Positions 11,104 through 45,367 of a stretch of 52,936 nucleotides of DNA are shown piece by piece. The DNA comes from Escherichia phage vB_EcoM_PiR, in sequence record OM313461; one strand, written 5' to 3'. Numbering within the stretch: position 1 is the stretch's first letter; every line of letters begins with the position of its first letter. The notes beneath the pieces were generated by a model, which saw only the letters and a list, made by a program, of their open reading frames with translations, searched no databases and was not told where the DNA came from. A program made the position numbers and the translations under genes.

Positions 11104-13233
11104 ATGTCGCTTCCACTTGATGAGGTTGTCGACGTCCAGTTCAGTAAGAGCAACGGGGGTAAAGGTTTTACCCCCAATGTTCCGCTGGAAGGCATAATGC
11201 TTTACAACTACGAGTACTCAATCGTTGCGGATGATGACCCTGTTCAGCTAGCTGTGCTCTACATTCCAACCAACGCTACGGAGCGTGGTATGGTATGGGA
11301 ATCTAGCGACTCAGACGTTATCACCGTTGATGAGCTCGGATTTGCAAAGCCGCTGGCGGAAGGTGTTGCATACGTGACTGGTACGTCTGTTGATGGCGGT
11401 TATACTGTACGAGCAAAGTTCAATGTTGCTCGAGCACCTATCCTTGTTGAATCTGTTACAGTGTCTCCCACAAGCGTGACACTTGAAGAGGGTAAGACTC
11501 AACGTCTGACATACACCTATTTACCTGCTAATGCAGACAAACCTGATTTTTACTGGATTTCAGATGACGAGGCTGTTGCTGTCGTTAGTGACAGCGGGCT
11601 TGTCACTGCCATTCTAGACGGTGAAACAACTGTAAGCGTACAGTACGGTATTGACAGTACTATATCTGATAGCTGTATCGTAACTGTTATTCCACCTATT
11701 GTACACGTTACAGGAGTTGAGTTTCTTACTCAGTCACCTCTTAACATTAATATCGGAAGCACAACTGAGACGAGTATTCGTGTATCGCCAGAAGACGCCA
11801 CTGACAAAACAGTGACGTACGAAAGCAGTGCGACTGATGTAGTAACTGTAGATACTGACGGAAATGTTACGGGTGTTATAGCTGGCAATGCCACTATTAC
11901 TGTTAAGACGAATGATGGTGATAAGACTGACACTCTTGATATTATAGTCAAGGAGGCTGTCGTAAATGTTACCGGTGTAAGTATTGATGAAGGCGCTACA
12001 GCTTCTATGGAGGTTGGTGACACGCTTCAGCTACATGCCACTGTGACTCCTGAAAATGCTACTGACCCGTCTGTTGTATGGAGTGCTCCTGTATCAGAAG
12101 TTGCGTCTGTGACTGAAGCTGGTTTGGTAACCGCTAACGCTGCAGGTTTAATTGATGTTACTGTTATCACTAATGATGGGAACTTTACTGATAGAATCGA
12201 GGTTAAAGTTACAGACCCCAGAATCGCAGTTACGGATGTTGCATGGGCTCCTGACTCTCCGACTAAAGTAAGACATGGCCATCAGGTGCAAACTAAAATT
12301 GTTATAACACCTGAAAAAGCAACCAATAAAAAAGTCAGTTACAACAGCTCAAACCCAGACGCTGTTACTGTTGACACTGATGGAGTTATATACGGTCAAT
12401 CTCCTGGAACTTCAACTATTACAGTTACAACAGACGACGGTGGACTTACTGCTTCGTTTATAGCTACTTGCACAGAAGTGGCTGTTATTACACCTGACGG
12501 TCTTGGCGGTATTCCAATCGGTGGCACCCAGCAGTTCACTTATACTGTTAGCCCGTCTGATGCTGAGCTAACTGATATTCGTTACGAATCTGCTAACCCA
12601 GCTATTGCAACTGTTGATTCGTCTGGCGTTGTAACTGGTGTTGCTAGCGGCGGATGTAATATCTGGATTTACGCAACTAGTAATGGTGCGGACATTAGCT
12701 CAGCTACTTGGGCACAAATTTCTGAGAGGGTTCAGGTATACCCGCAGTATGCTGAATGGCTTGTGGGTAACAACAAACAGCTTGATGTTGAGATTTATCC
12801 ATCGGACTCTAAGAGCGTTACCGTTACTTATAGCTCGTCAGATGATTCTGTAATTAGCATAGATGCAAATGGCTTGATGACTGCTAAGTCTGAAGGTTCA
12901 GCAACTATTACTGCTAACGTTGTAATGAACGGTGTTGCTGCTTCTGGTACAACATCTCCTTACGTGTCTGAGCTTTCTGTTACTACTGATTCGCTGCCTG
13001 CACTTACTGTTGGCAACACGCAGCAGCTGGTTGTAACTGTTAGACCTGAATACGCTAAGACAGACCCAGGCTATAACATTCAGTATACAACTACAGACGA
13101 TACTGTCGCTACTGTAAGTAATACCGGTGTTATTACTGGCGTTGGTAACGGTGGATGCCGTATTGGTGCCACAGTAACTGTGAGAAATGCTACAGCGTCG
13201 GACAGCTCTTATCAGTCCGTCGATGCAGCATAA
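11104..13233 (+). CDS. multi-repeat Ig-like (Big_2-type) domain protein
   Basis: about 7 repeats of the same Ig-like motif; track start 11101 is TTG, ATG at 11104. Confidence 0.75.
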   Translation: MSLPLDEVVDVQFSKSNGGKGFTPNVPLEGIMLYNYEYSIVADDDPVQLAVLYIPTNATERGMVWESSDSDVITVDELGFAKPLAEGVAYVTGTSVDGGYTVRAKFNVARAPILVESVTVSPTSVTLEEGKTQRLTYTYLPANADKPDFYWISDDEAVAVVSDSGLVTAILDGETTVSVQYGIDSTISDSCIVTVIPPIVHVTGVEFLTQSPLNINIGSTTETSIRVSPEDATDKTVTYESSATDVVTVDTDGNVTGVIAGNATITVKTNDGDKTDTLDIIVKEAVVNVTGVSIDEGATASMEVGDTLQLHATVTPENATDPSVVWSAPVSEVASVTEAGLVTANAAGLIDVTVITNDGNFTDRIEVKVTDPRIAVTDVAWAPDSPTKVRHGHQVQTKIVITPEKATNKKVSYNSSNPDAVTVDTDGVIYGQSPGTSTITVTTDDGGLTASFIATCTEVAVITPDGLGGIPIGGTQQFTYTVSPSDAELTDIRYESANPAIATVDSSGVVTGVASGGCNIWIYATSNGADISSATWAQISERVQVYPQYAEWLVGNNKQLDVEIYPSDSKSVTVTYSSSDDSVISIDANGLMTAKSEGSATITANVVMNGVAASGTTSPYVSELSVTTDSLPALTVGNTQQLVVTVRPEYAKTDPGYNIQYTTTDDTVATVSNTGVITGVGNGGCRIGATVTVRNATASDSSYQSVDAA

Positions 13234-13258
13234 AAATTAATTAACTTTGCCTCGGCCA

Positions 13259-13287
13259 TTTACTTGGTTAAACTTACTGAGTATAAT
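13259..13287 (+). promoter_or_regulatory. sigma70-like promoter TTTACT-N17-TATAAT
   Basis: -35 13259-13264, -10 13282-13287; inverted repeat CGGCCATT (13253-13260) / AATGGCCG (13285-13292) overlaps both hexamers; AAGAGG SD before ATG 13320. Confidence 0.6.
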
Positions 13288-13319
13288 GGCCGGAAAGTCC
13301 ACCCAAGAGGTAAACAAAA

Positions 13320-14459
13320 ATGCCGTTGAATGTAAACCAGATTGTAAACGTTCAACTGAACAACACTCCAACTGGTATCAGCAAAGGTGACTTCGGTAAG
13401 CTGGCTCTTTTAACTCAGGACCCTGGCACTGCTTTTCCTGACAGCGACAACGGACACTATGTTGAAATCGGCAGCTACTCTGAAGCCGAGTCTTATTGGG
13501 GTGCTGGTTCAGTTGTGCTTGGCGCGTTGAAGATTTTCTTTGCACAATCTCCGCGTCCTCGTTCAGTAGTTATCGCCTCATGGAACAACACCTCTACTCT
13601 GGATGCGGCTATTAAAGCATTCAACGATGTGTACCCTGACTGGTATGTTCTGCGTCCGCTTCCACCTACTGGTGAGCTGTCTGACGATGACATCAGTTTG
13701 CTGGCGTCAACTGTTGCTGCTTACGATAAAAAACGTTGCAGCTATACAACCACTAAAGCAACTCATATTGAAAACAGCGACTCCAACCCGATTAAAGTTC
13801 TGGCTGGTAAAGGCTACAACAATATGTGGCTTCAGTATGATAAGAACAACCAACACTATGCAGACATTTCTGCTATGGCGCGTGCTCTGTCCGTTAACTT
13901 CTCTGGTAACCGCACCACGATTACCATGAAGTTCAAACAAGAGCCTGGCATTACACCGAACAACACTTTAACGCTTACTGAAGCTAACAAGTGTAAAGCG
14001 CTGGGTATTAACTGGTACACCTACTACAGCACCTTTGCTATGCTTGCTGAGGGTACTGTTCTCGGTACGTCCAAACCGCCTCGCTTCTGGGATGAAGTAC
14101 ACGGCCTAGACTGGTTCTGTAATGCAGTTCAGACTTACGTCTTCAACTCAATCGCTACGTCACCCACGAAGGTGCCGCAGACGAACAAAGGTCACGAGCG
14201 CCTTACCGGTGCTGCAGCTGTTGCTTGTCAGCAGGCTGTCGACAACGGCTTGGTTGCACCTGGTATCTGGTACGGTGATGAGTTTGGTACACTGTCTTAT
14301 GGTGACCGACTCGAGACAGGTTTCTACATCTACATCCCTGACGTAGATGACCAGCCTCTGGATGAGCGTGAAGCTCGTCAGGCCGTTGTAATGCAAATCG
14401 CGATTAAGCTGGCAGGTGCAATCCATTCCAGCGACATCCTGATTAACTTCACTCGCTAA
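13320..14459 (+). CDS. tail sheath protein (probable)
   Basis: 379-aa ORF followed by 143-aa tube-sized ORF, chaperone with frameshift and tape measure, the order seen in P2/Mu-type contractile tails. Confidence 0.5.
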   Translation: MPLNVNQIVNVQLNNTPTGISKGDFGKLALLTQDPGTAFPDSDNGHYVEIGSYSEAESYWGAGSVVLGALKIFFAQSPRPRSVVIASWNNTSTLDAAIKAFNDVYPDWYVLRPLPPTGELSDDDISLLASTVAAYDKKRCSYTTTKATHIENSDSNPIKVLAGKGYNNMWLQYDKNNQHYADISAMARALSVNFSGNRTTITMKFKQEPGITPNNTLTLTEANKCKALGINWYTYYSTFAMLAEGTVLGTSKPPRFWDEVHGLDWFCNAVQTYVFNSIATSPTKVPQTNKGHERLTGAAAVACQQAVDNGLVAPGIWYGDEFGTLSYGDRLETGFYIYIPDVDDQPLDEREARQAVVMQIAIKLAGAIHSSDILINFTR

Positions 14460-14470
14460 GGAGCAGATCA

Positions 14471-14902
14471 ATGATCATCGATTCTTCTGAATGCGTGTTG
14501 AGCCTGAATGGTGTTCAGCTGTCCGACTGGGCAGACGGTGCCGATGTCATTGACGTGCAATGGGTGGACCCAGCTTCCACCTATCTTGCAGGTGCTGATG
14601 GCGGTGGTATCCAGATTATGAACCCGTCCAAAGCCATTAAGCTGACTATCAAAGTTAAGCAAAGTGGTCCGGACGCCAAATGGCTTAACGACCAGTACAA
14701 CCTGCAGCGTAACAACATTCGTGGATTCGTCCCGTTTGTGCTGCAAGCCAAAGACCTGCTAAACCAGGATTTGGCATGGGGTAAAAAAGGTTACTTTACC
14801 GATGGTTCCCCGTGGACTCGTGGTAACGGCCATAACCCGACTACCTTCTCTATTGTGTTCCACCAAGGTGGTATGCAGTTGACTGAAGGCTTTGACCAGT
14901 AA
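14471..14902 (+). CDS. tail tube protein (probable)
   Basis: 143-aa ORF between sheath candidate and chaperone. Confidence 0.5.
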   Translation: MIIDSSECVLSLNGVQLSDWADGADVIDVQWVDPASTYLAGADGGGIQIMNPSKAIKLTIKVKQSGPDAKWLNDQYNLQRNNIRGFVPFVLQAKDLLNQDLAWGKKGYFTDGSPWTRGNGHNPTTFSIVFHQGGMQLTEGFDQ

Positions 14903-14920
14903 CAATAGAGGAAAGCACAA

Positions 14921-15349
14921 ATGACTGAGCCCAAATCATTTGACATCGACGACGTAACGTACAACATGACACTCGCAAACGCGCTGCAAGCCTGGACAGT
15001 CCTGAAAAAAGCAGGTAAGCTGTTCAAAGGCATTGGTAACGCGGACATTGTGGGTAAAGACGGCAAAGTGGACGGTAAGAAAGCAATGCTGGTCCTGTTG
15101 GACGCTGTTCTGGAGAACGCAGGTTCTGACGAGATGACAGCTATTGAGGAACTAATCTTCCGCAATACTGTTGTTGTAGTTGATGGCAAACCGCGTAAGC
15201 TGTCTGACTGTAAAGACCAACACTTCAACGCACATCGTAGCCATATCTTCGGTGTGCTTAAGGAGGGATTGGTATATCAGTTCGCGGATTTTTTCAAAGG
15301 GAATGGCCTGTCAGGTCTAGCGGGTCTAGCCACGCCCTTGACGAAATAA
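14921..15349 (+). CDS. tail assembly chaperone (short form)
   Basis: 142-aa ORF immediately upstream of tape measure; contains slippery heptamer T_TTT_TTC in frame near its 3' end. Confidence 0.7.
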   Translation: MTEPKSFDIDDVTYNMTLANALQAWTVLKKAGKLFKGIGNADIVGKDGKVDGKKAMLVLLDAVLENAGSDEMTAIEELIFRNTVVVVDGKPRKLSDCKDQHFNAHRSHIFGVLKEGLVYQFADFFKGNGLSGLAGLATPLTK

Positions 15350-15531
15350 AACGCAAGCAACAGTCAGGGACGCAAGAAACTGACCGGTTTATTTGGCTTC
15401 CTATTCTCAAGGGTCATGTGACCCTTGCAGAATTAAAGTCGTCTTACAGCTTGTGTGATTTGTGCGACCTGCATATTGCTATTCTGGACTATGCCGAGTT
15501 AGAGGAAATCCATGGCGACCATAATCGATAG
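14921..15531 (+). CDS. tail assembly chaperone, -1 frameshift-extended form
   Basis: slippery site T TTT TTC at 15289-15295 in 0 frame; -1 frame open for 78 codons from 15295 to TAG 15529-15531, filling the apparent gap before the tape measure gene; length not a multiple of 3 by design. Confidence 0.6.
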
Positions 15532-17173
15532 CTTTCTGGTAACGCTTGAGAGTAAAGCCGATAGTGCAGGCTTTGACCTCTTCGACCAGCTGTCCCGCCG
15601 TTTTGTGATTACCCTCGGCGATGTAATCAATCTTGCTGAGCGTGCCGCTGGTGCGCTCGGTAGGATGTTTGCGCCTGCGTTAGAGGCTGACGTACTCGCC
15701 GCCAAGATTAAAGGCTTCGGCTACGACGTCGAATCGACGTGGAAAACGCTGATGGATATGTCTTTGCAAATGGGTACACCATTTCAAGAGGCACTCGACG
15801 GCTTTACTAAACTTAAAGCGTATGGCGTTGACCCGTTAAACGGTTCGCTACAAATGCTCAAAACAATCACTGCTGCAACAGGCGGTGATTTGGCACGTAC
15901 CATTGTTGCGTACGGCCAGGCAACTGCGATGGGTTCATTGCAGGGCCAGGAAAAGAACCAGTTCATTAACGCCGGTGTTGACATCTGGGGCGCATTGTCC
16001 CGTTACACTGGTAAGCAACTCGGCGAGCTTCAGGATATGATGCGGCAGAAGAAAATTACTGCCGACATACTGACTAGCGCGCTGAAACAAGAAGCCGAAC
16101 GGTTAAAACCAATTGCCCACGAAGTGTCACAGACACTCAAAGCGCAGTTAACTAACCTGAGCACAATTTGGTATGCTGCTCGTGCTAAGATTACCCAGAC
16201 CCGAGTATGGGACGAGGTAACTAAAGGCGCGATAAATATGGTTAAGTCACTTACCGCAGTGCTTAACGATACCACACTTACTGCAGCATTTAAAAAGTTT
16301 GATGAAATTGTATTCAATACAATTGAAAATATAAAACGACTTATCTACGTTATCGGGGATAACTTCCCGTTAATGGTTGCAATAACTTCGTACGCACTAT
16401 TGGCACTTATTCCCGTGCTGACTAAGGTCGGCAATGCCTTTGTGGGTTTAGCTGCCAAAATACTTATGAACCCGCTTACGTGGATTGTACTTGCTATCGG
16501 CGCAGTTATTGCTGTACTCGCTGACCTCGATGATGCTCTGGCAGGACGTGAGACAGTTGTTAAGTGGTCAAAAGACGTTGTTGCTGCATGGGGAATTGTC
16601 AAGCAGTATATCGTAGTTATTGCAGACTTTATTCTGTCAATATTTGACGGCCGCTTATGGAACCGGCTCGGTAACTGGTGGCAAGGTTTCCTTGGTGAAG
16701 TTAAGCAAGGCATAGAGCAGATAAAGCTGTGGTTGTCTGAAGCGCTTTACCAGTTGCCTGGTGGTAAGTTCCTAATGGCATTATTTGGTAAGCTCGATTC
16801 TACCCTGGGCTTTGCTGGTAACAAACTTGTGACAGGTGCGGAGGCTACTGTCAATGCTGTGTCGCCTACCACTGAACAGGGCGGAAGCTTCTGGAGTAAG
16901 GCGCTCAACTGGTCTATGCGTAACTTCAACCCTATTACAGGGGAGATGACAGCTGGAGGCCAGGCTATGCAGTCAGCTATAAATACAGCTAAGCAAAACC
17001 AACAACAGAACGCAACTGTTATCCATCAGGATAATAGCGTTAAAGTTGATGCTACTATTACCGGTGTACAAAACCCACAAGAAGTAGGTCGTGAGGTCAA
17101 TGACCAGGTCAAACAGGCGCAGAAAGAGAATGCTACTGTAAGGGCTAACAACAAAACGGCGGTAACACAATGA
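15512..17173 (+). CDS. tail tape measure protein
   Basis: 553-aa protein with central hydrophobic segments, downstream of chaperone/frameshift pair. Confidence 0.75.
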   Translation: MATIIDSFLVTLESKADSAGFDLFDQLSRRFVITLGDVINLAERAAGALGRMFAPALEADVLAAKIKGFGYDVESTWKTLMDMSLQMGTPFQEALDGFTKLKAYGVDPLNGSLQMLKTITAATGGDLARTIVAYGQATAMGSLQGQEKNQFINAGVDIWGALSRYTGKQLGELQDMMRQKKITADILTSALKQEAERLKPIAHEVSQTLKAQLTNLSTIWYAARAKITQTRVWDEVTKGAINMVKSLTAVLNDTTLTAAFKKFDEIVFNTIENIKRLIYVIGDNFPLMVAITSYALLALIPVLTKVGNAFVGLAAKILMNPLTWIVLAIGAVIAVLADLDDALAGRETVVKWSKDVVAAWGIVKQYIVVIADFILSIFDGRLWNRLGNWWQGFLGEVKQGIEQIKLWLSEALYQLPGGKFLMALFGKLDSTLGFAGNKLVTGAEATVNAVSPTTEQGGSFWSKALNWSMRNFNPITGEMTAGGQAMQSAINTAKQNQQQNATVIHQDNSVKVDATITGVQNPQEVGREVNDQVKQAQKENATVRANNKTAVTQ

Positions 17174-18066
17174 GTGACATCTTTGCTGGAATTACTGATG
17201 CTGCCAACGACTTGTACCAAGAAGCCCGCGACAGACTCATGGGCGACGGTACGACCACCTTACGCTTCCGCAACTGCGGAGGCATTAAGATGGATGCTGT
17301 CACTAACGAAGAGCATCAGTCTGACCTTGACATCGCTGATAACGAACTTGAGTCCGGGGCTAAGGCTTCGGACCATGCTGCTGTACAACCAAAAGTTATT
17401 ACTGTCACTGGCGTGGTGGTTGGTTATATCGACGAGTCAGTTCAAGAGTCAACAATTAAGGATGTAACAGGCCTACGGTCTATGGATTTCTTGGATGATA
17501 TTCAGCTTCCACAGGTAGTGTCTACTGCTCTCGAAGGAACAAGGGACTTTGCTGTTAACAAGCTAGCCTCATTCATAGACTGGGGCGGTTTAGACGCTAC
17601 CATCTCACGCTCTTTAGTTCCATGGCTTCCTGACTTTAGTATAGCTGAACAGCTTAAGTCTTCGGACAATATGAGGATTGAACAGGTATACCGTACCTTG
17701 CTGGATTTACAGAAAAACGTTATCTACTGTGACGTTGACACTGGTATCTTCAAGTATACGAATATGCTTTTGAAGTCTGTTCGTGTTGTACAGGAGAAAG
17801 ATGGTTCAGCGACGTTTACCCTTACGTTCCGTGAAGTCATCGAAGTGCCGATTGTAGTTACAAACGCTGTAGCGGCTAAGTCAACAGGTCGCCCGGCTAA
17901 CAACGGTACCAAGAAGAGCGGACGGGCGCAAGGTCAGGGTGATGCTGTCAGTAAGAAGGACATAAACACAACTACGTCGATTAGCGAGAAACGCGTAAAC
18001 GATAACCGTGGATTCGGCGTAACGCTTGGTGATATGTTCGGCTTTAACCTACGAGGTATTTTCTGA
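17170..18066 (+). CDS. tail/baseplate protein (Mu gpN-like position)
   Basis: ATGA overlap with tape measure stop; position in tail module. Confidence 0.45.
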   Translation: MSDIFAGITDAANDLYQEARDRLMGDGTTTLRFRNCGGIKMDAVTNEEHQSDLDIADNELESGAKASDHAAVQPKVITVTGVVVGYIDESVQESTIKDVTGLRSMDFLDDIQLPQVVSTALEGTRDFAVNKLASFIDWGGLDATISRSLVPWLPDFSIAEQLKSSDNMRIEQVYRTLLDLQKNVIYCDVDTGIFKYTNMLLKSVRVVQEKDGSATFTLTFREVIEVPIVVTNAVAAKSTGRPANNGTKKSGRAQGQGDAVSKKDINTTTSISEKRVNDNRGFGVTLGDMFGFNLRGIF

Positions 18067-18458
18067 TGATACTTACCACAACTGCTTTCCTCGACATTGT
18101 AGGTAACGATGGTTCTGGTATTTACGACTTGGAGCCTACCTCTGAAGGTAAGCAATCAATATCAATTTCTATCGCTGGATATACGTATAACATTGAGTTG
18201 TACTATAACACGGTAGGTCAGCTCTGGCAGGCTACAGTGACTGACCTATCAAGTAATGCTGTACTTTGTTCCAGTTATGCTTTACAATATGGGCGTATTG
18301 CTTTTGGTAACTGGGACACGCGTATAGCGTTGCTGGTAAGTGACAAATCCTCCAGCCGCATCGGTCCTATGACTACAGATGACATGGGAGGACGTTGCAA
18401 TGTCTACATCGTCGACAAAACAGCCTACCCGTCAGTTTGGCCGCGCGTTAAAGCTTGA
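18066..18458 (+). CDS. hypothetical tail protein
   Basis: ATG overlapping upstream TGA. Confidence 0.45.
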   Translation: MILTTTAFLDIVGNDGSGIYDLEPTSEGKQSISISIAGYTYNIELYYNTVGQLWQATVTDLSSNAVLCSSYALQYGRIAFGNWDTRIALLVSDKSSSRIGPMTTDDMGGRCNVYIVDKTAYPSVWPRVKA

Positions 18459-19359
18459 GGTCAGCAACGGTAAAGATGAAGGCATAATCATCTCAAATCT
18501 TCGTGTTACCTTTGACATTCAAAAGGGTAACACGAAGCATCCAAATAAAGCGACAATCACAGTGTTCAACTTGACTGAATCCAACCGTTATAAGTTGGCG
18601 GCAGGTACCTGGGATTACGTCCGTCTCTCTGTGGGTTACGGTCTTGACAACATAGTTTATCGTTTGATATTCGAAGGCGATATTACTCGTGCTAACGACC
18701 AACGAAACGGCCTTGACATTCAGACTGTTCTCGAATGTGGCGATGCCCGTAAATCTTACAACGATGGCTTTGTTAATACGACGCTGGCTGCTGGTTCTAC
18801 GTATGACAGTGTTGTTGACGTTTGCCTGGCTAGCATGCCAAACGTTGAAGAAGGGTACGTCTGCCTTGACAGCAACAAACCAGCTTTCCTGAGAGCACGT
18901 ACTCTGTTCGGACAAACGCACAGTGTACTGGACCAGGTTGCTGCTGCCAACAAGGCTACCTGGTCTATACAAGACAATAAGCTCAATATCATTCCTAACG
19001 ACTCTGTTACTGACTACGACGTTGTTGTGCTGTCAGAATCGTCTGGTATGATTGGTGCTCCTCGCGGCACAGACAAAGGTCTTGAGGTTACTTGCAACCT
19101 GAATCCTAGCCTGGCCATCGGTGGTCTTGTACAAGTAAATTCTATGTTTACACAGTACAACGGACAGTATAAAATCGACACTATAAGATTTCGGGGTGAC
19201 AATAAACCGAAAGGACCGTGGCGTGCTGACTTAACGGTTCTTGGCGGACAGTTCGCGAAGAAAGTTCGTCGACTCAAGAAGCCACGCAAACTGTCGAAGA
19301 TTGAGTACGACTACGTTACCGAACCCGGTGTTGACCATACAGTAGGCGGAGGTAGCTGA
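18400..19359 (+). CDS. baseplate hub / tail protein (probable)
   Basis: start re-assigned to ATG 18400 with GGGAGGA SD; position before spike and gp25-like genes. Confidence 0.45.
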   Translation: MSTSSTKQPTRQFGRALKLEVSNGKDEGIIISNLRVTFDIQKGNTKHPNKATITVFNLTESNRYKLAAGTWDYVRLSVGYGLDNIVYRLIFEGDITRANDQRNGLDIQTVLECGDARKSYNDGFVNTTLAAGSTYDSVVDVCLASMPNVEEGYVCLDSNKPAFLRARTLFGQTHSVLDQVAAANKATWSIQDNKLNIIPNDSVTDYDVVVLSESSGMIGAPRGTDKGLEVTCNLNPSLAIGGLVQVNSMFTQYNGQYKIDTIRFRGDNKPKGPWRADLTVLGGQFAKKVRRLKKPRKLSKIEYDYVTEPGVDHTVGGGS

Positions 19360-31748: not shown

Positions 31749-32047
31749 CCTGCACCCGACGGGTGTCAAAAAGATACGCCAAAACACCACAACTAAAATT
31801 GTGACCGCCGTCTACACCAGGCGCCTGGGGTCAAGGTAGCGAGCCAATACCCTTTTCAGCGTCGGAGGAATCGAACCTCACACATCACGGCTTTTACCAA
31901 ATCTCGGTCAGCGAGCAGAATTGAACTGCATTCACTGGACACCCTCACTGTTTCAACACACCAGGCTTAATTGATTGTTGATAAGAAGAGAGATGTAAGG
32001 ATGTCCATTGAATGCACCTCCGTAGAGGTGCGTTCAGATCAGCGCTA

Positions 32048-32515
32048 TTATTCAGCAACTTCTTCGTTGTCGCCTTCGATCGCGCCAGCCAGTTTAGCAG
32101 CTTCAGCTTTAGCAGCTTCTGCTTTCTGGCGAGCTTTTTCAGCTTTCTCTTCAGCTTTGCGAATCTGCTCAGCAGCTTTCGCTTCGGCTTTTTCAGCTTT
32201 GATGCGAGCACGCTCTTCAGCTTTACGCTGTTTTTCAGCGGCTTTAGCAGCATCGCGTTCTGCTTTAGCGGTATCAACACGCTTAGCCAGAACTTTACCA
32301 GTGGCTTTACGCCAGTAGGTCAGCTGGGAAGAAACAGTACCACGGGACATTTCGGTAGTGGCAACAACTTCGTCCATAACGTCAGAGCTGGACTTGCCTT
32401 CTTCATGGGCTTTATCAGCCAGGTCCCATACGTAACGTGCGCCAGTACCAGCTGCCGGATACAGTACGCCGTTAACTTCTTCTTTACCAGTTACAAAAGT
32501 CAGTTTCTCGCTCAT
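32048..32515 (-). CDS. hypothetical protein with Ala/Lys/Glu-rich low-complexity C-terminal tail
   Basis: start re-assigned to ATG 32515 with GAGGAA SD; C-terminal KAEE/AKAA repeats. Confidence 0.6.
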   Translation of the reverse strand: MSEKLTFVTGKEEVNGVLYPAAGTGARYVWDLADKAHEEGKSSSDVMDEVVATTEMSRGTVSSQLTYWRKATGKVLAKRVDTAKAERDAAKAAEKQRKAEERARIKAEKAEAKAAEQIRKAEEKAEKARQKAEAAKAEAAKLAGAIEGDNEEVAE

Positions 32516-32563
32516 AATTTTTTCCTCGTCTACAGGGCTTAATGTTTGTTCGTTACGTGAGTT

Positions 32564-32621: not shown

Positions 32622-32849
32622 CTAGAAAGGCACATCATAGTCAAAAAGTTTACATCCGGAAGACAGGACTGCCGGCGGTGGTGTTTTGCCTCCGGATAAT
32701 AGACAACCTCCTGCCTGAAAGCTACGGCAGTTCGCACAGCTCATATCCTGCAGGTATATAATAAGCTGCCGGCGAACGTGCCGAGGCAAAGCTTTAGCCT
32801 GGGTTGCTACCCGTTCAAATAGTTCTCTGTCATCGAGCGCCATAGCCAT
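32622..32849 (-). CDS. small Cys-containing protein (hypothetical)
   Basis: 75 aa with CANC...GGC...GC cysteines; overlaps helicase 3' end by 20 nt. Confidence 0.4.
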   Translation of the reverse strand: MAMALDDRELFERVATQAKALPRHVRRQLIIYLQDMSCANCRSFQAGGCLLSGGKTPPPAVLSSGCKLFDYDVPF

Positions 32850-34500
32850 TCCCCCAGTCGTAGTTCATGATTTGTGGGTAGGGTCGTTTAATCCATACCT
32901 TGATGCGCTTAGGAATAGCCAGCTCACCCTTACGGCGAATAAACTCATCGCATGTTTCAGGCGGTTCGGTTCCTGCAGCATTACGCCACCAGGCATCTGC
33001 CATTTGCTTAGCATTACCATGGGCCTCAATATTTACCCAAGTTGTGTACACTTCCAGGTTTGAATAATACACAACCTTTATACTGTCAGGCCGTCCTTGC
33101 TTCTGGAATAAAGAATAGTTTACCAGCGTAACATCCTTATCCACAACACGAAGCTGACCGTTAGTCATTACCTCTTCTTCTGATGAAGTGAAGGCAATAG
33201 CAGGTCCGTTAACTGTAAATTCAAATTCATGTCCGCACATCGGATATACACCATTCTCGTCTGGCGTACTTCCTTTAGCCGGATGTTTACATGTACGAGC
33301 AGCATAACCACTTACCTGGTGGCAGATAGGGCACTCTTTACCGCCAGGTGTTTTCTCTGACCGTTTCTTTTTCTTCTTACCAAGACGTGGCGGAACAGCC
33401 GGGTCATCAATAGGACCAAGGTCAATGGTGTTAGATGTGAAGTCCATAACAAGACAGTCATGCTTACCAGGCGCTGTACGTAATCCTCGACCGAGTATCT
33501 GCACCCACAAGGCAACAGACGTGGACGGGCGCAAGATGCCGAGCATATCAATTTCAGGATAGTCAAAGCCTGTTGTCAATACGTTTACGTTTACGCATAC
33601 CCTGGCACGTCCGCTTGTAAACTCTTCCAGTGCGGCTTCACGTTCTTTCTTTGTAAGACCGCCATGCACAACTACAGTCTGCCACCCGCGCAGATTAAAT
33701 TCGTCTGCTATGTTGTGGGCGTGCTCAACACTTGTGGCAAATACAAGAACGTGGTTCCTGTCTTTACCGTAGTGCATCATCTCACGAATAGCCGCGACTG
33801 TTATACTATGCTGGTTGGCTACCTTCTCGAGCTCTGACGGGATATAGTCACCCATCCTTTCGCCAACATTACTGGTGTCAATCTTGGTTAACACTTTCTT
33901 GTTGACCAGGCGCGACAGGAAGCCTTCATTTACCAGTCGGGTGAATGCGTCAGGTGTTGTAAGGTCATAGCAGATGTCGGTAAATATACCACAGTCAAGC
34001 AAGTGACCACCTGCCAGTCGATACGGAGTTGCTGTAAGGCCTGTTACCTTTACCTTAGGATTAAGCTCTTTGAAATGAGCAATAACCTTACGGTATGTTG
34101 TTTCAGACTTCTCAGGAACGAGATGGGCTTCGTCAATGAATATAAGATTGAACTTACCTGCTTCTTCCAGGTTCTTAATAATCGACTGTACTGACGCTAC
34201 AACTATACGACCTGAAAAGTCTATGTGTCCTGCACCTGAAGAGTAGATTGATACTGGTGCTTGTGCCCAGTGGCGAACAATTGCTTTGGCGTCTTGTTCT
34301 ACCAGCTCCTTGACGTGTGTCAATATAAGAATGCGCTGACGTGGATAGCTGGTAAGAATATCCTTCATCAACATACCAAGCACAGGTGATTTACCTGAAC
34401 CTGTTGGCATGACAATAAGTGGGTTACCACTATAAGAATTGAAGTACGACCACCAAGCGGTCACAGCTTCTTGTTGATACCAGCGAGCTTCAAAAGCCAT
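32830..34500 (-). CDS. SF2 DEAD/DEAH-box DNA helicase
   Basis: motif I MPTGSGKS, motif II FIDEAH, SAT-like TATP, C-terminal Cys cluster CPICH...C; GAGGAGA SD. Confidence 0.75.
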   Translation of the reverse strand: MAFEARWYQQEAVTAWWSYFNSYSGNPLIVMPTGSGKSPVLGMLMKDILTSYPRQRILILTHVKELVEQDAKAIVRHWAQAPVSIYSSGAGHIDFSGRIVVASVQSIIKNLEEAGKFNLIFIDEAHLVPEKSETTYRKVIAHFKELNPKVKVTGLTATPYRLAGGHLLDCGIFTDICYDLTTPDAFTRLVNEGFLSRLVNKKVLTKIDTSNVGERMGDYIPSELEKVANQHSITVAAIREMMHYGKDRNHVLVFATSVEHAHNIADEFNLRGWQTVVVHGGLTKKEREAALEEFTSGRARVCVNVNVLTTGFDYPEIDMLGILRPSTSVALWVQILGRGLRTAPGKHDCLVMDFTSNTIDLGPIDDPAVPPRLGKKKKKRSEKTPGGKECPICHQVSGYAARTCKHPAKGSTPDENGVYPMCGHEFEFTVNGPAIAFTSSEEEVMTNGQLRVVDKDVTLVNYSLFQKQGRPDSIKVVYYSNLEVYTTWVNIEAHGNAKQMADAWWRNAAGTEPPETCDEFIRRKGELAIPKRIKVWIKRPYPQIMNYDWGNGYGAR

Positions 34501-44935: not shown

Positions 44936-45367
44936 ATGGTTAATATAAGACAGAAAGGACAGAACTTTGAGCGTAAAATGGCTAAGAAGTTTAATAGCTC
45001 GTTCGGATTAACTGTTGAGCGCAATCTTCAACAGTCTATTAATGGCGGGGATGACTTGTTGGGTGTGCCGTTTTTCAGCGTTGAACTGAAGAAGCACAAG
45101 ACCAAGTCTATCGGAACATGGTGGAGACAGTGTGCGGCATCGGCAAAGGCTCAGAACAAGATGCCAGTGCTTATATACGAACTACCAAGAAAACAGCCTA
45201 CCGTGGTGATGAATAAGGCTGATGTGATTGACTGTTTTCCAAGTGGCACGACTTTTAACGAGGCATCGAACCGCCTCTTTGTGGGTTTAGTAGAATTAAC
45301 ATGGGAACAATTTTGCCGGGTCTACAACTATTACGTTGCGCCCGGCACTCAATATCACGTCAATTAA
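44936..45367 (+). CDS. hypothetical protein, possibly a small nuclease/resolvase-like protein
   Basis: 143 aa basic protein with GAGG SD; function guess is weak. Confidence 0.5.
   Translation: MVNIRQKGQNFERKMAKKFNSSFGLTVERNLQQSINGGDDLLGVPFFSVELKKHKTKSIGTWWRQCAASAKAQNKMPVLIYELPRKQPTVVMNKADVIDCFPSGTTFNEASNRLFVGLVELTWEQFCRVYNYYVAPGTQYHVN

What the first reader, a model, noticed from the sequence alone, without database searches (positions are those of the whole stretch)
15289..15531. Programmed -1 ribosomal frameshift in the tail assembly chaperone gene
The 161-bp gap between the chaperone ORF and the tape measure gene is not non-coding. The heptamer T TTT TTC (15289-15295) sits in the 0 frame near the end of the chaperone ORF, and the -1 frame is open from 15295 for 78 codons to TAG 15529-15531, just past the tape measure start. 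This is the conserved G/GT (lambda) or E/E+E' (P2) arrangement.
Basis: partly seen in the sequence, partly recalled or inferred. Interest (0 to 1): 0.6.

Follow-up and report, generated by a model that had tools for sequence, protein, structure and literature searches.

The report
Tail chaperone gene programmed -1 frameshift
The "empty" 162 bases between this phage's tail chaperone gene and its tape measure gene almost certainly encode the tail end of a second, longer chaperone made when ribosomes slip back one base at T TTT TTC; this is an ordinary feature of long-tailed phages that the public records of this phage group have not annotated.

Summary
T_TTT_TTC lies at 15289-15295 in the 0 frame of ORF 14921-15349, as GAT TTT TTC. 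That ORF matches Pfam Phage_TAC_9 at E=4.5e-33 and sits between the tube gene and the tape measure gene. The -1 frame is open for 78 codons to TAG 15529-15531, 20 nt into the tape measure gene. The gap is 162 nt, not 161.

- The site G[AG]T_TTT_TT[C/T/G] and a 70-85-codon -1 extension occur in 54 of 55 sources examined, down to 28-44% chaperone identity.
- In the gap, pN/pS is 0.18-0.40 in the -1 frame. The other two frames give 0.7-5 and contain stops.
- The -1 ORF has no conserved start codon; Pasteurella phage Pmp2 has none.
- U_UU.U_UU.C is a tested slippery motif in E. coli.

No expression data exist. A downstream hairpin is only weakly supported. Transcriptional slippage at the T6 run would give the same protein and is not excluded.

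The homologous frameshift is already annotated in phage Aaphi23 (ORF54-54'). None of the 15 records from this phage's own group that I inspected annotates it. This is a new member of a known kind, of low interest, useful mainly for correcting annotation.

The parts
14921..15349 (+). Tail assembly chaperone, short 0-frame product (142 aa, 15.4 kDa), the gpG / E / TAC-N analogue
   Evidence: ORF. Pfam Phage_TAC_9 E=4.5e-33 and Phage_TAC_15 E=1.2e-16. PHROG 1613 'tail assembly chaperone' E=9.4e-5. Size.
15289..15295 (+). Slippery heptamer T_TTT_TTC (0 frame GAT TTT TTC = D123 F124 F125)
   Evidence: It is conserved as G[AG]T_TTT_TT[C/T/G] in 54 of 55 sources, representing 36 distinct sequences. 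U_UU.U_UU.C is frameshift-prone in E. coli (PMC4066793).
15295..15531 (+). -1 frame extension: 78 codons (QREWPVR...GDHNR) plus TAG; the T / E' / TAC-NC-specific part
   Evidence: In the gap, pN/pS is 0.18-0.40 in this frame, against 0.7-5 with stops in the other frames. The motif DWF.W.P...L.EL..Y.L.DL.D.H is conserved.
14921..15531 (+). Predicted fusion product, join(14921..15295,15295..15531): 203 aa, 22.8 kDa
   Evidence: Constructed. It has the same architecture as the annotated Aaphi23 ORF54-54' joined CDS.
15295..15349 (+). Dual-coding overlap (0 frame KGNGLSGLAGLATPLTK; -1 frame QREWPVRSSGSSHALDEI), nearly invariant at nucleotide level in the clade
   Evidence: Alignments.
15299..15337 (+). 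Candidate 3' stimulatory hairpin (GGG-AA-UGGC(C) ... (A)GCCA-CG-CCC), 3 nt after the heptamer; weak evidence only
   Evidence: It is the minimum-energy fold in five clade members tested singly, but z is only -0.8 to -1.8. Eight pairs are 97% paired; three vary on one side only and none is compensatory. The longer window fold has z=0.07.
15418..15531 (+). 37-codon GTG ORF that some relatives' records annotate as a separate hypothetical gene; here read as the C-terminal half of the extension
   Evidence: Annotated separately as BP63_35, vBSenM1_69 and KE24 CDS0018. The start codon is not conserved, and the conserved sequence lies upstream of it.
15512..17173 (+). Tape measure protein gene (context; start overlapped by the end of the -1 ORF; GAGGA 15502-15506 upstream)
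   Evidence: Pfam TMP_3 E=1.5e-20. PHROG 29251. Sequence.
14471..14902 (+). Tail tube gene (context)
   Evidence: Weak Pfam KPP10_Orf10 hit (E=3.1e-5, 24.4 bits, just under the 25-bit cut-off). PHROG 280 E=5e-30. The S144 homologue is annotated 'putative tube protein'.
13320..14459 (+). Tail sheath gene (context)
   Evidence: Pfam DUF3383 E=4.2e-72. PHROG 205 'tail sheath' E=1.6e-93.

Best explanation
The window is a Rosemountvirus-type myophage. Gene 14921-15349 encodes its tail assembly chaperone.

Most ribosomes terminate at TAA 15347-15349 and make the 142-aa short form. A minority slip when tRNA-Phe occupies both the P site (UUU 15290-15292) and the A site (UUC 15293-15295). Both tRNAs move back one base and re-pair with UUU UUU (15289-15294). 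Decoding then continues in the -1 frame from C15295. This adds 78 residues and stops at TAG 15529-15531, giving a 203-aa fusion (...ADFF|QREWPVR...).

By analogy with lambda gpG/gpGT, the shared N-terminal domain would coat the tape measure protein. The extension would recruit tube or sheath subunits. The fixed short:long ratio would be set by slip efficiency.

Shown here: the anatomy, the chaperone family assignment, the conservation of the site, and coding selection on the -1 frame. Inferred: that the shift is ribosomal, its efficiency, any role for the 3' hairpin, and the division of labour between the two domains.
For: - Anatomy.
- Chaperone identity and tube / chaperone / tape-measure gene order.
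- Site and -1 ORF conserved in close and distant relatives:
  - Loughboroughvirus S144 (79% nt) and SOI901, KE25, SE1_KM and fHy-Eco03 (66-69% nt).
  - Metagenome contigs and an Aggregatibacter prophage (44-56% aa).
  - Aaphi23, Pmp2 and ZX7 (28-42% aa).
  - 26 of 26 prophage loci from Pasteurellaceae, Luteibacter, Mycoavidus, Pelistega, Metapseudomonas and Lelliottia.
  - In total 54 of 55 sources, 36 distinct sequences, extension 70-85 codons.
- Length changes in the extension are in whole codons.
- Purifying selection acts specifically in the -1 frame: against S144 pS=0.61 and pN=0.11, substitutions by codon position 10/5/20, and the other frames contain stops.
- The wobble T of the preceding codon (GAT or GGT) and of the first Phe codon (TTT) is invariant, while position Z varies among C, T and G. 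This is what the X_XXY_YYZ rule predicts.
- There is no conserved start codon. Pmp2 has none in 80 codons. The conserved DWF motif lies upstream of every candidate start except in ZX7.
- U_UU.U_UU.C belongs to the efficient H_HH.U_UU.Y class in E. coli and is used by IS elements (PMC4066793).
- P2 E/E+E' shifts at TTTTTTG without a 3' structure (PMC3091744).
- The Aaphi23 RefSeq record annotates the homologous joined CDS ORF54-54'.
- The S144 virion proteome table lists ORF20, ORF21 and ORF23 but not ORF22, as expected for a chaperone.
Against: - There is no direct evidence of the fusion protein. The fHy-Eco03 LC-MS/MS data list Gp34 with 3 peptides, but I found no entry for the extension.
- No statistically distinctive 3' RNA structure exists: z=0.07 for 65 nt and -0.9 for 45 nt. 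There is no compensatory covariation. The hairpin's 3-nt spacer is shorter than the usual 5-9 nt, a range I state from my own knowledge.
- The same T run could also support transcriptional slippage, which these data cannot separate from ribosomal slippage.
- This genome carries Arg (CGG 15385-15387) where all other sources have an invariant Trp in the extension.
Confidence: 0.85

Rival explanations
1. Transcriptional slippage. RNA polymerase stutters on the T6 run (15289-15294) and adds one extra U to a fraction of mRNAs. Ordinary translation of those mRNAs then yields the same ADFF-QREWPVR fusion, with no ribosomal shift.
For: - The site is a homopolymeric run: T6 here, T7 in Aaphi23 and many Pasteurellaceae prophages.
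- PMC4066793 notes that UUUUUUU may produce indels in mRNA by transcriptional slippage.
- No strong 3' RNA stimulator was found.
- The protein product would be identical, so the comparative evidence fits both mechanisms.
Against: - From my own knowledge, efficient slippage by bacterial RNA polymerase generally needs runs of about 8-9 or more; T6 is short.
- The run is always in exact X_XXY_YYZ register, and U_UU.U_UU.C is a measured ribosomal frameshift motif in E. coli.
- The closest analogue by arrangement, P2 at TTTTTTG, is described as a translational -1 frameshift (PMC3091744).
Confidence: 0.08
2. The gap holds a small independent gene. This is the 37-codon GTG ORF 15418-15531, annotated as a hypothetical protein in BP63, vB_SenM-1, KE24 and, with other starts, in ZCSE2, SOI901 and KE25. 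It would be translated from its own start, with no frameshift.
For: - Gene callers predict it in several records.
- The extension gives a weak PHROG 4364 hit at E=0.0023.
Against: - The start is not conserved. SE1_KM and metagenome contig L022 have only an ATG about 15 codons before the stop, and Pmp2 has no ATG, GTG or TTG at all in the -1 ORF.
- The residues upstream of every candidate start (REWPVRNSGS, DWFIWLP) are conserved and under purifying selection.
- The annotated starts differ between records: ORFs of 114, 129, 135 and 138 nt.
- By my reading, no good Shine-Dalgarno sequence precedes GTG 15418.
Confidence: 0.03
3. Chance open frame. The gap is non-coding spacer or regulatory DNA, and the heptamer is simply the coding sequence for Asp-Phe-Phe.
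For: The amino acids D/G-F-F are themselves conserved in the chaperone, so a T-rich stretch is partly expected.
Against: - Only 1.0% of -1-frame starting points stay open for 78 codons.
- The frame stays open in 36 distinct sequences, with whole-codon indels and third-position-biased substitutions.
- The synonymous positions that create the heptamer never vary.
Confidence: 0.01

Closest known systems
Phage Aaphi23 (Aggregatibacter/Haemophilus) ORF54 / ORF54-54', annotated as a joined CDS in NC_004827
   Same: - The chaperone is homologous (43% identity over 129 aa), and so is the extension (45% over 44 aa).
- The slip position is the same, at the ADFF motif (T_TTT_TTT).
- The extension has 73 codons and ends 13 nt inside the tape measure gene.
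- The gene order is the same: sheath, tube, chaperone, tape measure.
   Different: - The heptamer ends in T rather than C.
- It is a temperate phage of Pasteurellaceae.
- The 3' sequence is different and lacks the Rosemount-type hairpin.
- Its frameshift is annotated; here it is not.
Phage P2 E / E+E' (-1 frameshift at TTTTTTG)
   Same: - It is a contractile-tail phage.
- The chaperone gene lies between the tube and tape measure genes.
- The slip site is the T-run heptamer T_TTT_TTG; relative ZX7 has exactly this site.
- No 3' structure is required (PMC3091744).
   Different: - No detectable sequence-family link was found; Pfam hits are only Phage_TAC_9 and Phage_TAC_15.
- The sizes differ: P2 makes 91 and 142 aa, this phage 142 and 203 aa.
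Phage lambda gpG / gpGT
   Same: - The logic is the same: two products share an N-terminus, a low-level -1 shift occurs near the 3' end, and the -1 ORF fills the space up to the tape measure gene.
- The functional model comes from here: the shared domain binds the tape measure and the extension binds the major tail subunit, at a ratio of about 30:1 (PMC5009743).
   Different: - Lambda's heptamer is different; I recall it as G_GGA_AAG, from memory only.
- Lambda has a non-contractile tail.
- No sequence similarity was detected.
- The functions of the two domains are untested here.
Proposed TAC-N / TAC-NC -1 frameshift of Pakpunavirus (phage Adele), Vandenendeviridae and Andersonviridae, with an invariant GTTTTT motif (PMC12846349)
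   Same: - It concerns a myophage tail chaperone locus, and the window's tube protein has a weak, sub-threshold Pfam match to a tube-protein family named after Pseudomonas phage KPP10, which I take from my own knowledge to be a Pakpunavirus.
- The downstream piece is routinely mis-annotated as a hypothetical gene or as intergenic.
- There is a poly-T slip motif near the 3' end of TAC-N.
- The argument from an uninterrupted -1 frame is the same.
   Different: tblastn with the window's chaperone did not reach those phages, so homology of the chaperones is not shown here. Their motif is given as GTTTTT rather than a full heptamer.

Membership tests
Tail assembly chaperone -1 programmed frameshift (G/GT-type arrangement of long-tailed phages) | The gene lies between the major tail (tube) gene and the tape measure gene | tested here: met
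   The order is sheath 13320-14459, tube 14471-14902, chaperone 14921-15349, tape measure 15512-17173.
Tail assembly chaperone -1 programmed frameshift (G/GT-type arrangement of long-tailed phages) | The upstream ORF belongs to a tail assembly chaperone family | tested here: met
   Phage_TAC_9 E=4.5e-33 (114.7 bits, cut-off 25) and Phage_TAC_15 E=1.2e-16.
Tail assembly chaperone -1 programmed frameshift (G/GT-type arrangement of long-tailed phages) | [quoted passage not shown] | tested here: met
   T_TTT_TTC at 15289-15295, 17 codons before the stop. The motif class has been shown to be shift-prone in E. coli.
Tail assembly chaperone -1 programmed frameshift (G/GT-type arrangement of long-tailed phages) | An overlapping -1 ORF with no start of its own reaches to about the tape measure start | tested here: met
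   It has 78 codons and ends 20 nt into the tape measure gene. The first ATG, GTG or TTG is at 15418. No start is conserved in relatives.
Tail assembly chaperone -1 programmed frameshift (G/GT-type arrangement of long-tailed phages) | The site and the -1 coding capacity are conserved in diverged relatives | tested here: met
   54 of 55 sources have them. The -1 frame has pN/pS 0.18-0.40, against 0.7 or more in the other frames.
Tail assembly chaperone -1 programmed frameshift (G/GT-type arrangement of long-tailed phages) | Both products are made in a fixed ratio, both are required for tail assembly, and both are absent from virions | not testable with these tools
   Only indirect evidence exists. 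S144 ORF22 is absent from the virion proteome table. fHy-Eco03 Gp34 was seen with 3 peptides, in a preparation that also contained DNA polymerase.
Tail assembly chaperone -1 programmed frameshift (G/GT-type arrangement of long-tailed phages) | The shift is ribosomal, not transcriptional | not testable with these tools
   Register and motif class favour ribosomal slippage, but the T6/T7 run leaves RNA polymerase slippage open.
Sequence families of lambda gpG/gpT or P2 gpE/E' | Significant match to those proteins' own Pfam, PHROG or NCBIfam models | tested here: not met
   At E up to 0.1, Pfam gives only Phage_TAC_9 and Phage_TAC_15. The extension has no Pfam or NCBIfam hit and no PDB sequence hit. 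The locus is analogous to lambda and P2 in arrangement, but is not filed as a member of their sequence families.
Aaphi23 ORF54-54' family (Phage_TAC_9 chaperones with a DWF...EL..Y.L.DL..H extension) | Homology of both the N-terminal domain and the -1 extension, with the slip at the same D/G-F-F position | tested here: met
   tblastn gives 43% identity, E=1e-24, for the chaperone, and 45% identity, E=7e-5, for the extension. The alignment places the heptamer at the same column.

The most novel reading that the evidence does not exclude
The T_TTT_TTY site at the D/G-F-F motif may be an ancient, frozen recoding site. It would be shared by a whole lineage of contractile-tail modules, possibly including the Pakpunavirus and Andersonviridae 'GTTTTT' sites. 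In addition, the Rosemount/Loughborough clade may have acquired a dual-coding 3' hairpin (15299-15337) with an unusually short 3-nt spacer that tunes the short:long chaperone ratio.
Probability: 0.25. Interest if true: 0.3.

Novelty: new member of a known kind. Interest (0 to 1): 0.2.

Why it matters
The main value is better annotation. About 60 public genomes of Rosemountvirus, Loughboroughvirus and their kin, several of them candidates for Salmonella or E. coli biocontrol, show this stretch either as an intergenic gap or as a spurious 37-45-aa hypothetical gene. The correct annotation would be a joined CDS for the long chaperone form.

The survey also shows that one slip position, T_TTT_TTN at the D/G-F-F motif, is kept from enterobacterial lytic phages to prophages of Pasteurellaceae, Xanthomonadales and Burkholderiales. 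That gives a clean alignment set for studying how such sites persist. It does not open a new question: the phenomenon has been textbook knowledge since lambda G/GT.

Tried and rejected
The 78-aa extension alone gave pLDDT 52 and pTM 0.33, too poor for a fold search, so none was run.
- The PDB sequence search with the fusion gave no hit at E up to 1. NCBIfam gave no hit for either part.
- The word-indexed protein search returned only 7 relatives. The IMG/VR scan returned only close relatives.
- The 8-sequence alignment was too diverse for the genome scan. A 7-sequence alignment worked.
- An upstream Shine-Dalgarno-like stimulator was considered. AAGGAGG at 15260-15266 is 22 nt from the heptamer and is not conserved in relatives, so I rejected it.
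- I looked for a significant 3' RNA structure. Folding energies are not better than shuffles and there is no compensatory covariation, so it is kept only as a weak candidate.
- The fHy-Eco03 proteomics supplement was searched for extension peptides and for an unannotated ORF at the right coordinates. Nothing was found, and no peptide-level data are held.
- The original Aaphi23 genome paper is not in the library. No paper in the library links Rosemountvirus with a frameshift.
- I considered whether the window was an artificially mutated copy of phage JEP7, which has the same length and gene coordinates. I rejected this: 179 of the 226 differences that fall within genes are at third codon positions.

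Full report
**What the window is.** Region 13300-17200 is 99.4% identical to Escherichia phage vB_EcoM_IntR and 96-98% identical to many Salmonella and Escherichia phages of the genus Rosemountvirus. Around the finding the + strand carries four genes in order.
- A sheath gene at 13320-14459 (DUF3383, E=4.2e-72; PHROG 'tail sheath').
- A tube gene at 14471-14902, with a weak, sub-threshold KPP10_Orf10 hit and PHROG 280 at E=5e-30.
- A 142-codon ORF at 14921-15349.
- A tape measure gene at 15512-17173 (TMP_3, E=1.5e-20).

The 142-codon ORF matches Pfam Phage_TAC_9 at E=4.5e-33 and Phage_TAC_15 at E=1.2e-16.

**Checking the observation.** The sequence reads ...GCG GAT TTT TTC AAA GGG... in the chaperone frame. 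T TTT TTC at 15289-15295 is thus in X_XXY_YYZ register. From C15295 the -1 frame reads QREWPVRSSGSS...EEIHGDHNR for 78 codons and stops at TAG 15529-15531. That is 20 nt past the tape measure ATG at 15512. The gap is 162 nt (15350-15511), not 161. Upstream of GTG 15418 the -1 ORF has no ATG, GTG or TTG.

Chance is a poor explanation. Only 1.0% of -1-frame starting points inside the window's genes stay open for 78 codons, and in-frame heptamers are rare, 23 in 15,209 codons.

**Comparative evidence.** The same arrangement is present in every relative I could fetch except one anomalous record.
- Loughboroughvirus S144, PK3 and AEV23 (79% nt) and the more distant SOI901, KE25, SE1_KM and fHy-Eco03 (66-69% nt) all have TTTTTTC at the same codon. 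Their -1 ORFs have 76-79 codons and end 16-19 nt inside the tape measure gene.
- Metagenomic contigs with 53-56% chaperone identity and an Aggregatibacter prophage with 44% identity behave the same way.
- tblastn with the extension alone reaches Aaphi23, S1249, Pasteurella phage Pmp2, Proteus phage ZX7 and Erwinia phage LS-2018a. Aaphi23, Pmp2 and ZX7 were checked and have T_TTT_TTT, T_TTT_TTC and T_TTT_TTG respectively at the homologous D-F-F (F-L in ZX7) position.
- A scan of one genome per species found 26 loci. Twenty-five are prophage-like loci in Pasteurellaceae, Luteibacter, Mycoavidus, Pelistega, Metapseudomonas and Lelliottia. One is a contig identical to this phage, binned in a Bacillota MAG. 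All 26 have the site.

Overall 54 of 55 sources have the site, representing 36 distinct site-plus-extension sequences. The variants are GATTTTTTC (17), GATTTTTTT (12), GGTTTTTTC (6) and GATTTTTTG (1). The extension has 70-85 codons, apart from one truncated copy in Haemophilus influenzae.

One caveat applies to this scan. One of its two search patterns required the FF peptide. That biases the sample towards the amino acids, but not towards the codon choice or the open -1 frame.

**Is the -1 frame coding?** The extension aligns as protein, and length differences fall in whole codons. In the part of the gap that overlaps no other gene, comparison with S144 gives pS=0.61 and pN=0.11 in the -1 frame. 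Substitutions fall 10/5/20 on codon positions 1/2/3. The other two frames give pN/pS of 0.7 and 5.2 and contain stop codons. The three more distant comparisons agree, with 0.32-0.40 in the -1 frame against about 0.9 or more elsewhere.

The motif DWF[IV][WF].P[IV]...[ST]L.EL..Y[ST]L.DL.[DSE][FL]H persists down to the most distant members. The two synonymous positions that create the heptamer never vary: the wobble T of GAT or GGT, and the wobble T of the first Phe codon. The last heptamer position, which the X_XXY_YYZ rule leaves free, varies among C, T and G.

**Rival: a separate small gene.** Several records annotate a 37-45-codon ORF in the gap. The others inspected leave the gap empty. The candidate start is not conserved. 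SE1_KM and contig L022 have only an ATG about 15 codons before the stop, and Pmp2 has no start codon anywhere in its 80-codon -1 ORF. In every genome but ZX7 the conserved DWF motif lies upstream of any possible start. The conserved N-terminal half of the extension can therefore only be reached from the chaperone frame.

**Mechanism.** U_UU.U_UU.C belongs to the H_HH.U_UU.Y class, which Sharma et al. list among the most efficient -1 motifs in E. coli. It showed more than 0.10% shifting without any stimulator and is used by IS elements (PMC4066793). From established knowledge of tRNA decoding, tRNA-Phe (anticodon GAA) reads both UUU and UUC. Both the P-site and A-site tRNAs can therefore re-pair cognately after moving back one base. 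P2 shifts at TTTTTTG to make E and E+E' and has no 3' structure (PMC3091744).

Downstream of the site, the 40 nt that code in both frames are almost invariant within the Rosemount/Loughborough clade. They can form a bipartite hairpin (GGG..UGGCC / GGCCA..CYC) starting 3 nt after the heptamer. It is the minimum-energy fold in the five clade members tested. However, z-scores are only -0.8 to -1.8, and the 65-nt and 141-nt folds are no better than shuffles. Its eight pairs show only one-sided changes (G-C to G-U, U-A to U-G) and no compensatory change. The window itself has a C·A mismatch at the innermost pair. Dual coding alone explains the conservation, so the hairpin remains a candidate only.

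Transcriptional slippage on the T6 or T7 run would yield the identical protein and cannot be excluded from sequence. I rate it unlikely because the run is short and the register is exact.

**Function by analogy.** In lambda, gpG and the G part of gpGT coat the tape measure protein. The T part binds the major tail subunit. The roughly 30:1 ratio is needed for assembly, and neither protein is in the virion (PMC5009743). Here the predicted products are 142 aa (15.4 kDa) and 203 aa (22.8 kDa).

The S144 virion proteome table includes the sheath, tube and tape measure proteins but not the chaperone ORF22, which fits a chaperone role. The fHy-Eco03 particle preparation contained its homologue Gp34 at low level (3 peptides), along with non-structural proteins such as DNA polymerase, so that observation is uninformative. 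No dataset I could read reports the extension.

**What is known already.** The RefSeq record of Aaphi23 annotates the homologous joined CDS ORF54-54' at 32820..33403. Its end coincides with the -1 stop I derive from the T_TTT_TTT site. A 2025 paper argues on the same comparative grounds for a conserved -1 frameshift with a GTTTTT motif in the chaperone locus of Pakpunavirus, Vandenendeviridae and Andersonviridae. It notes that the downstream piece is routinely mis-annotated (PMC12846349).

None of the 15 Rosemountvirus, Loughboroughvirus and related records that I inspected carries a joined CDS. The S144 paper does not mention a frameshift. The paper library has nothing linking Rosemountvirus to a frameshift. 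The locus is not a detectable sequence relative of lambda G/T or P2 E/E'; the resemblance to them is one of arrangement and presumed mechanism.

**Verdict.** This is an ordinary, deeply conserved tail-chaperone -1 frameshift that is missing from the annotation of this phage group. It is a new member of a known kind, and its interest is low.

Noticed in passing
window 15385-15387: This genome has CGG (Arg) in the extension motif T-D-R-F. All 53 other sources with the site, including the 99.7%-identical IntR, have TGG (Trp) at this otherwise invariant position. It could be a sequencing error or a real, possibly impairing, variant.
   Followed up: partly
window 15260-15266: A perfect Shine-Dalgarno-like AAGGAGG lies 22 nt upstream of the heptamer, inside the chaperone ORF. 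Relatives have AAAGAAGG or CAGAAAGG instead, so it is probably not a frameshift stimulator.
   Followed up: partly
window 32518-32524 and 45283-45289: Two other in-frame slippery heptamers lie near gene ends. TTTTTTC sits 5 codons before the stop of ORF 32012-32542, with a 13-codon -1 extension. GGGTTTA sits 25 codons before the stop of ORF 44936-45367, with a 46-codon -1 run reaching 62 nt past the stop. Their conservation was not checked.
   Followed up: no
L012 (Salmonella phage SPHG1, MW413353.1 32044-35410): This is the only source without the site. The record is short (47,119 bp), the match to the chaperone region is partial and split in two places, and one 786-nt 'hypothetical protein' sits where the sheath, tube and chaperone genes should be. 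It looks like a deletion or a misassembly.
   Followed up: no
L040 (Haemophilus influenzae M10489 prophage): The -1 extension is cut to 45 codons by a premature stop, while eight closely related Haemophilus, Aggregatibacter and Rodentibacter prophages keep 73-74. This may be a decaying prophage.
   Followed up: no
L051 (Lelliottia wanjuensis prophage), locus 1548-1554: The T_TTT_TTT site is conserved, but the 0 frame runs on for about 56 codons after it instead of 15-25. The two frames therefore overlap for most of the extension.
   Followed up: partly
H35 / H88 (PP583539.1) and L029 (JAEWER010000021.1): A record named 'Listeria phage 220426122051' (host Listeria monocytogenes) is 98.9% identical to this enterobacterial phage over the chaperone region. 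A contig with a 100% identical chaperone is binned in a 'Bacillota bacterium' MAG. These are probably a host mislabel or contamination and a mis-binning.
   Followed up: no
window 11800-18700 versus Escherichia phage JEP7 (MT764207.1): The window has exactly the same length (52,936) and the same gene coordinates as JEP7, yet differs at 3.35% of positions with no indel in this 6.9-kb stretch. Of the 226 differences that fall within genes, 179 are at third codon positions, so the divergence is natural rather than an artefact.
   Followed up: yes
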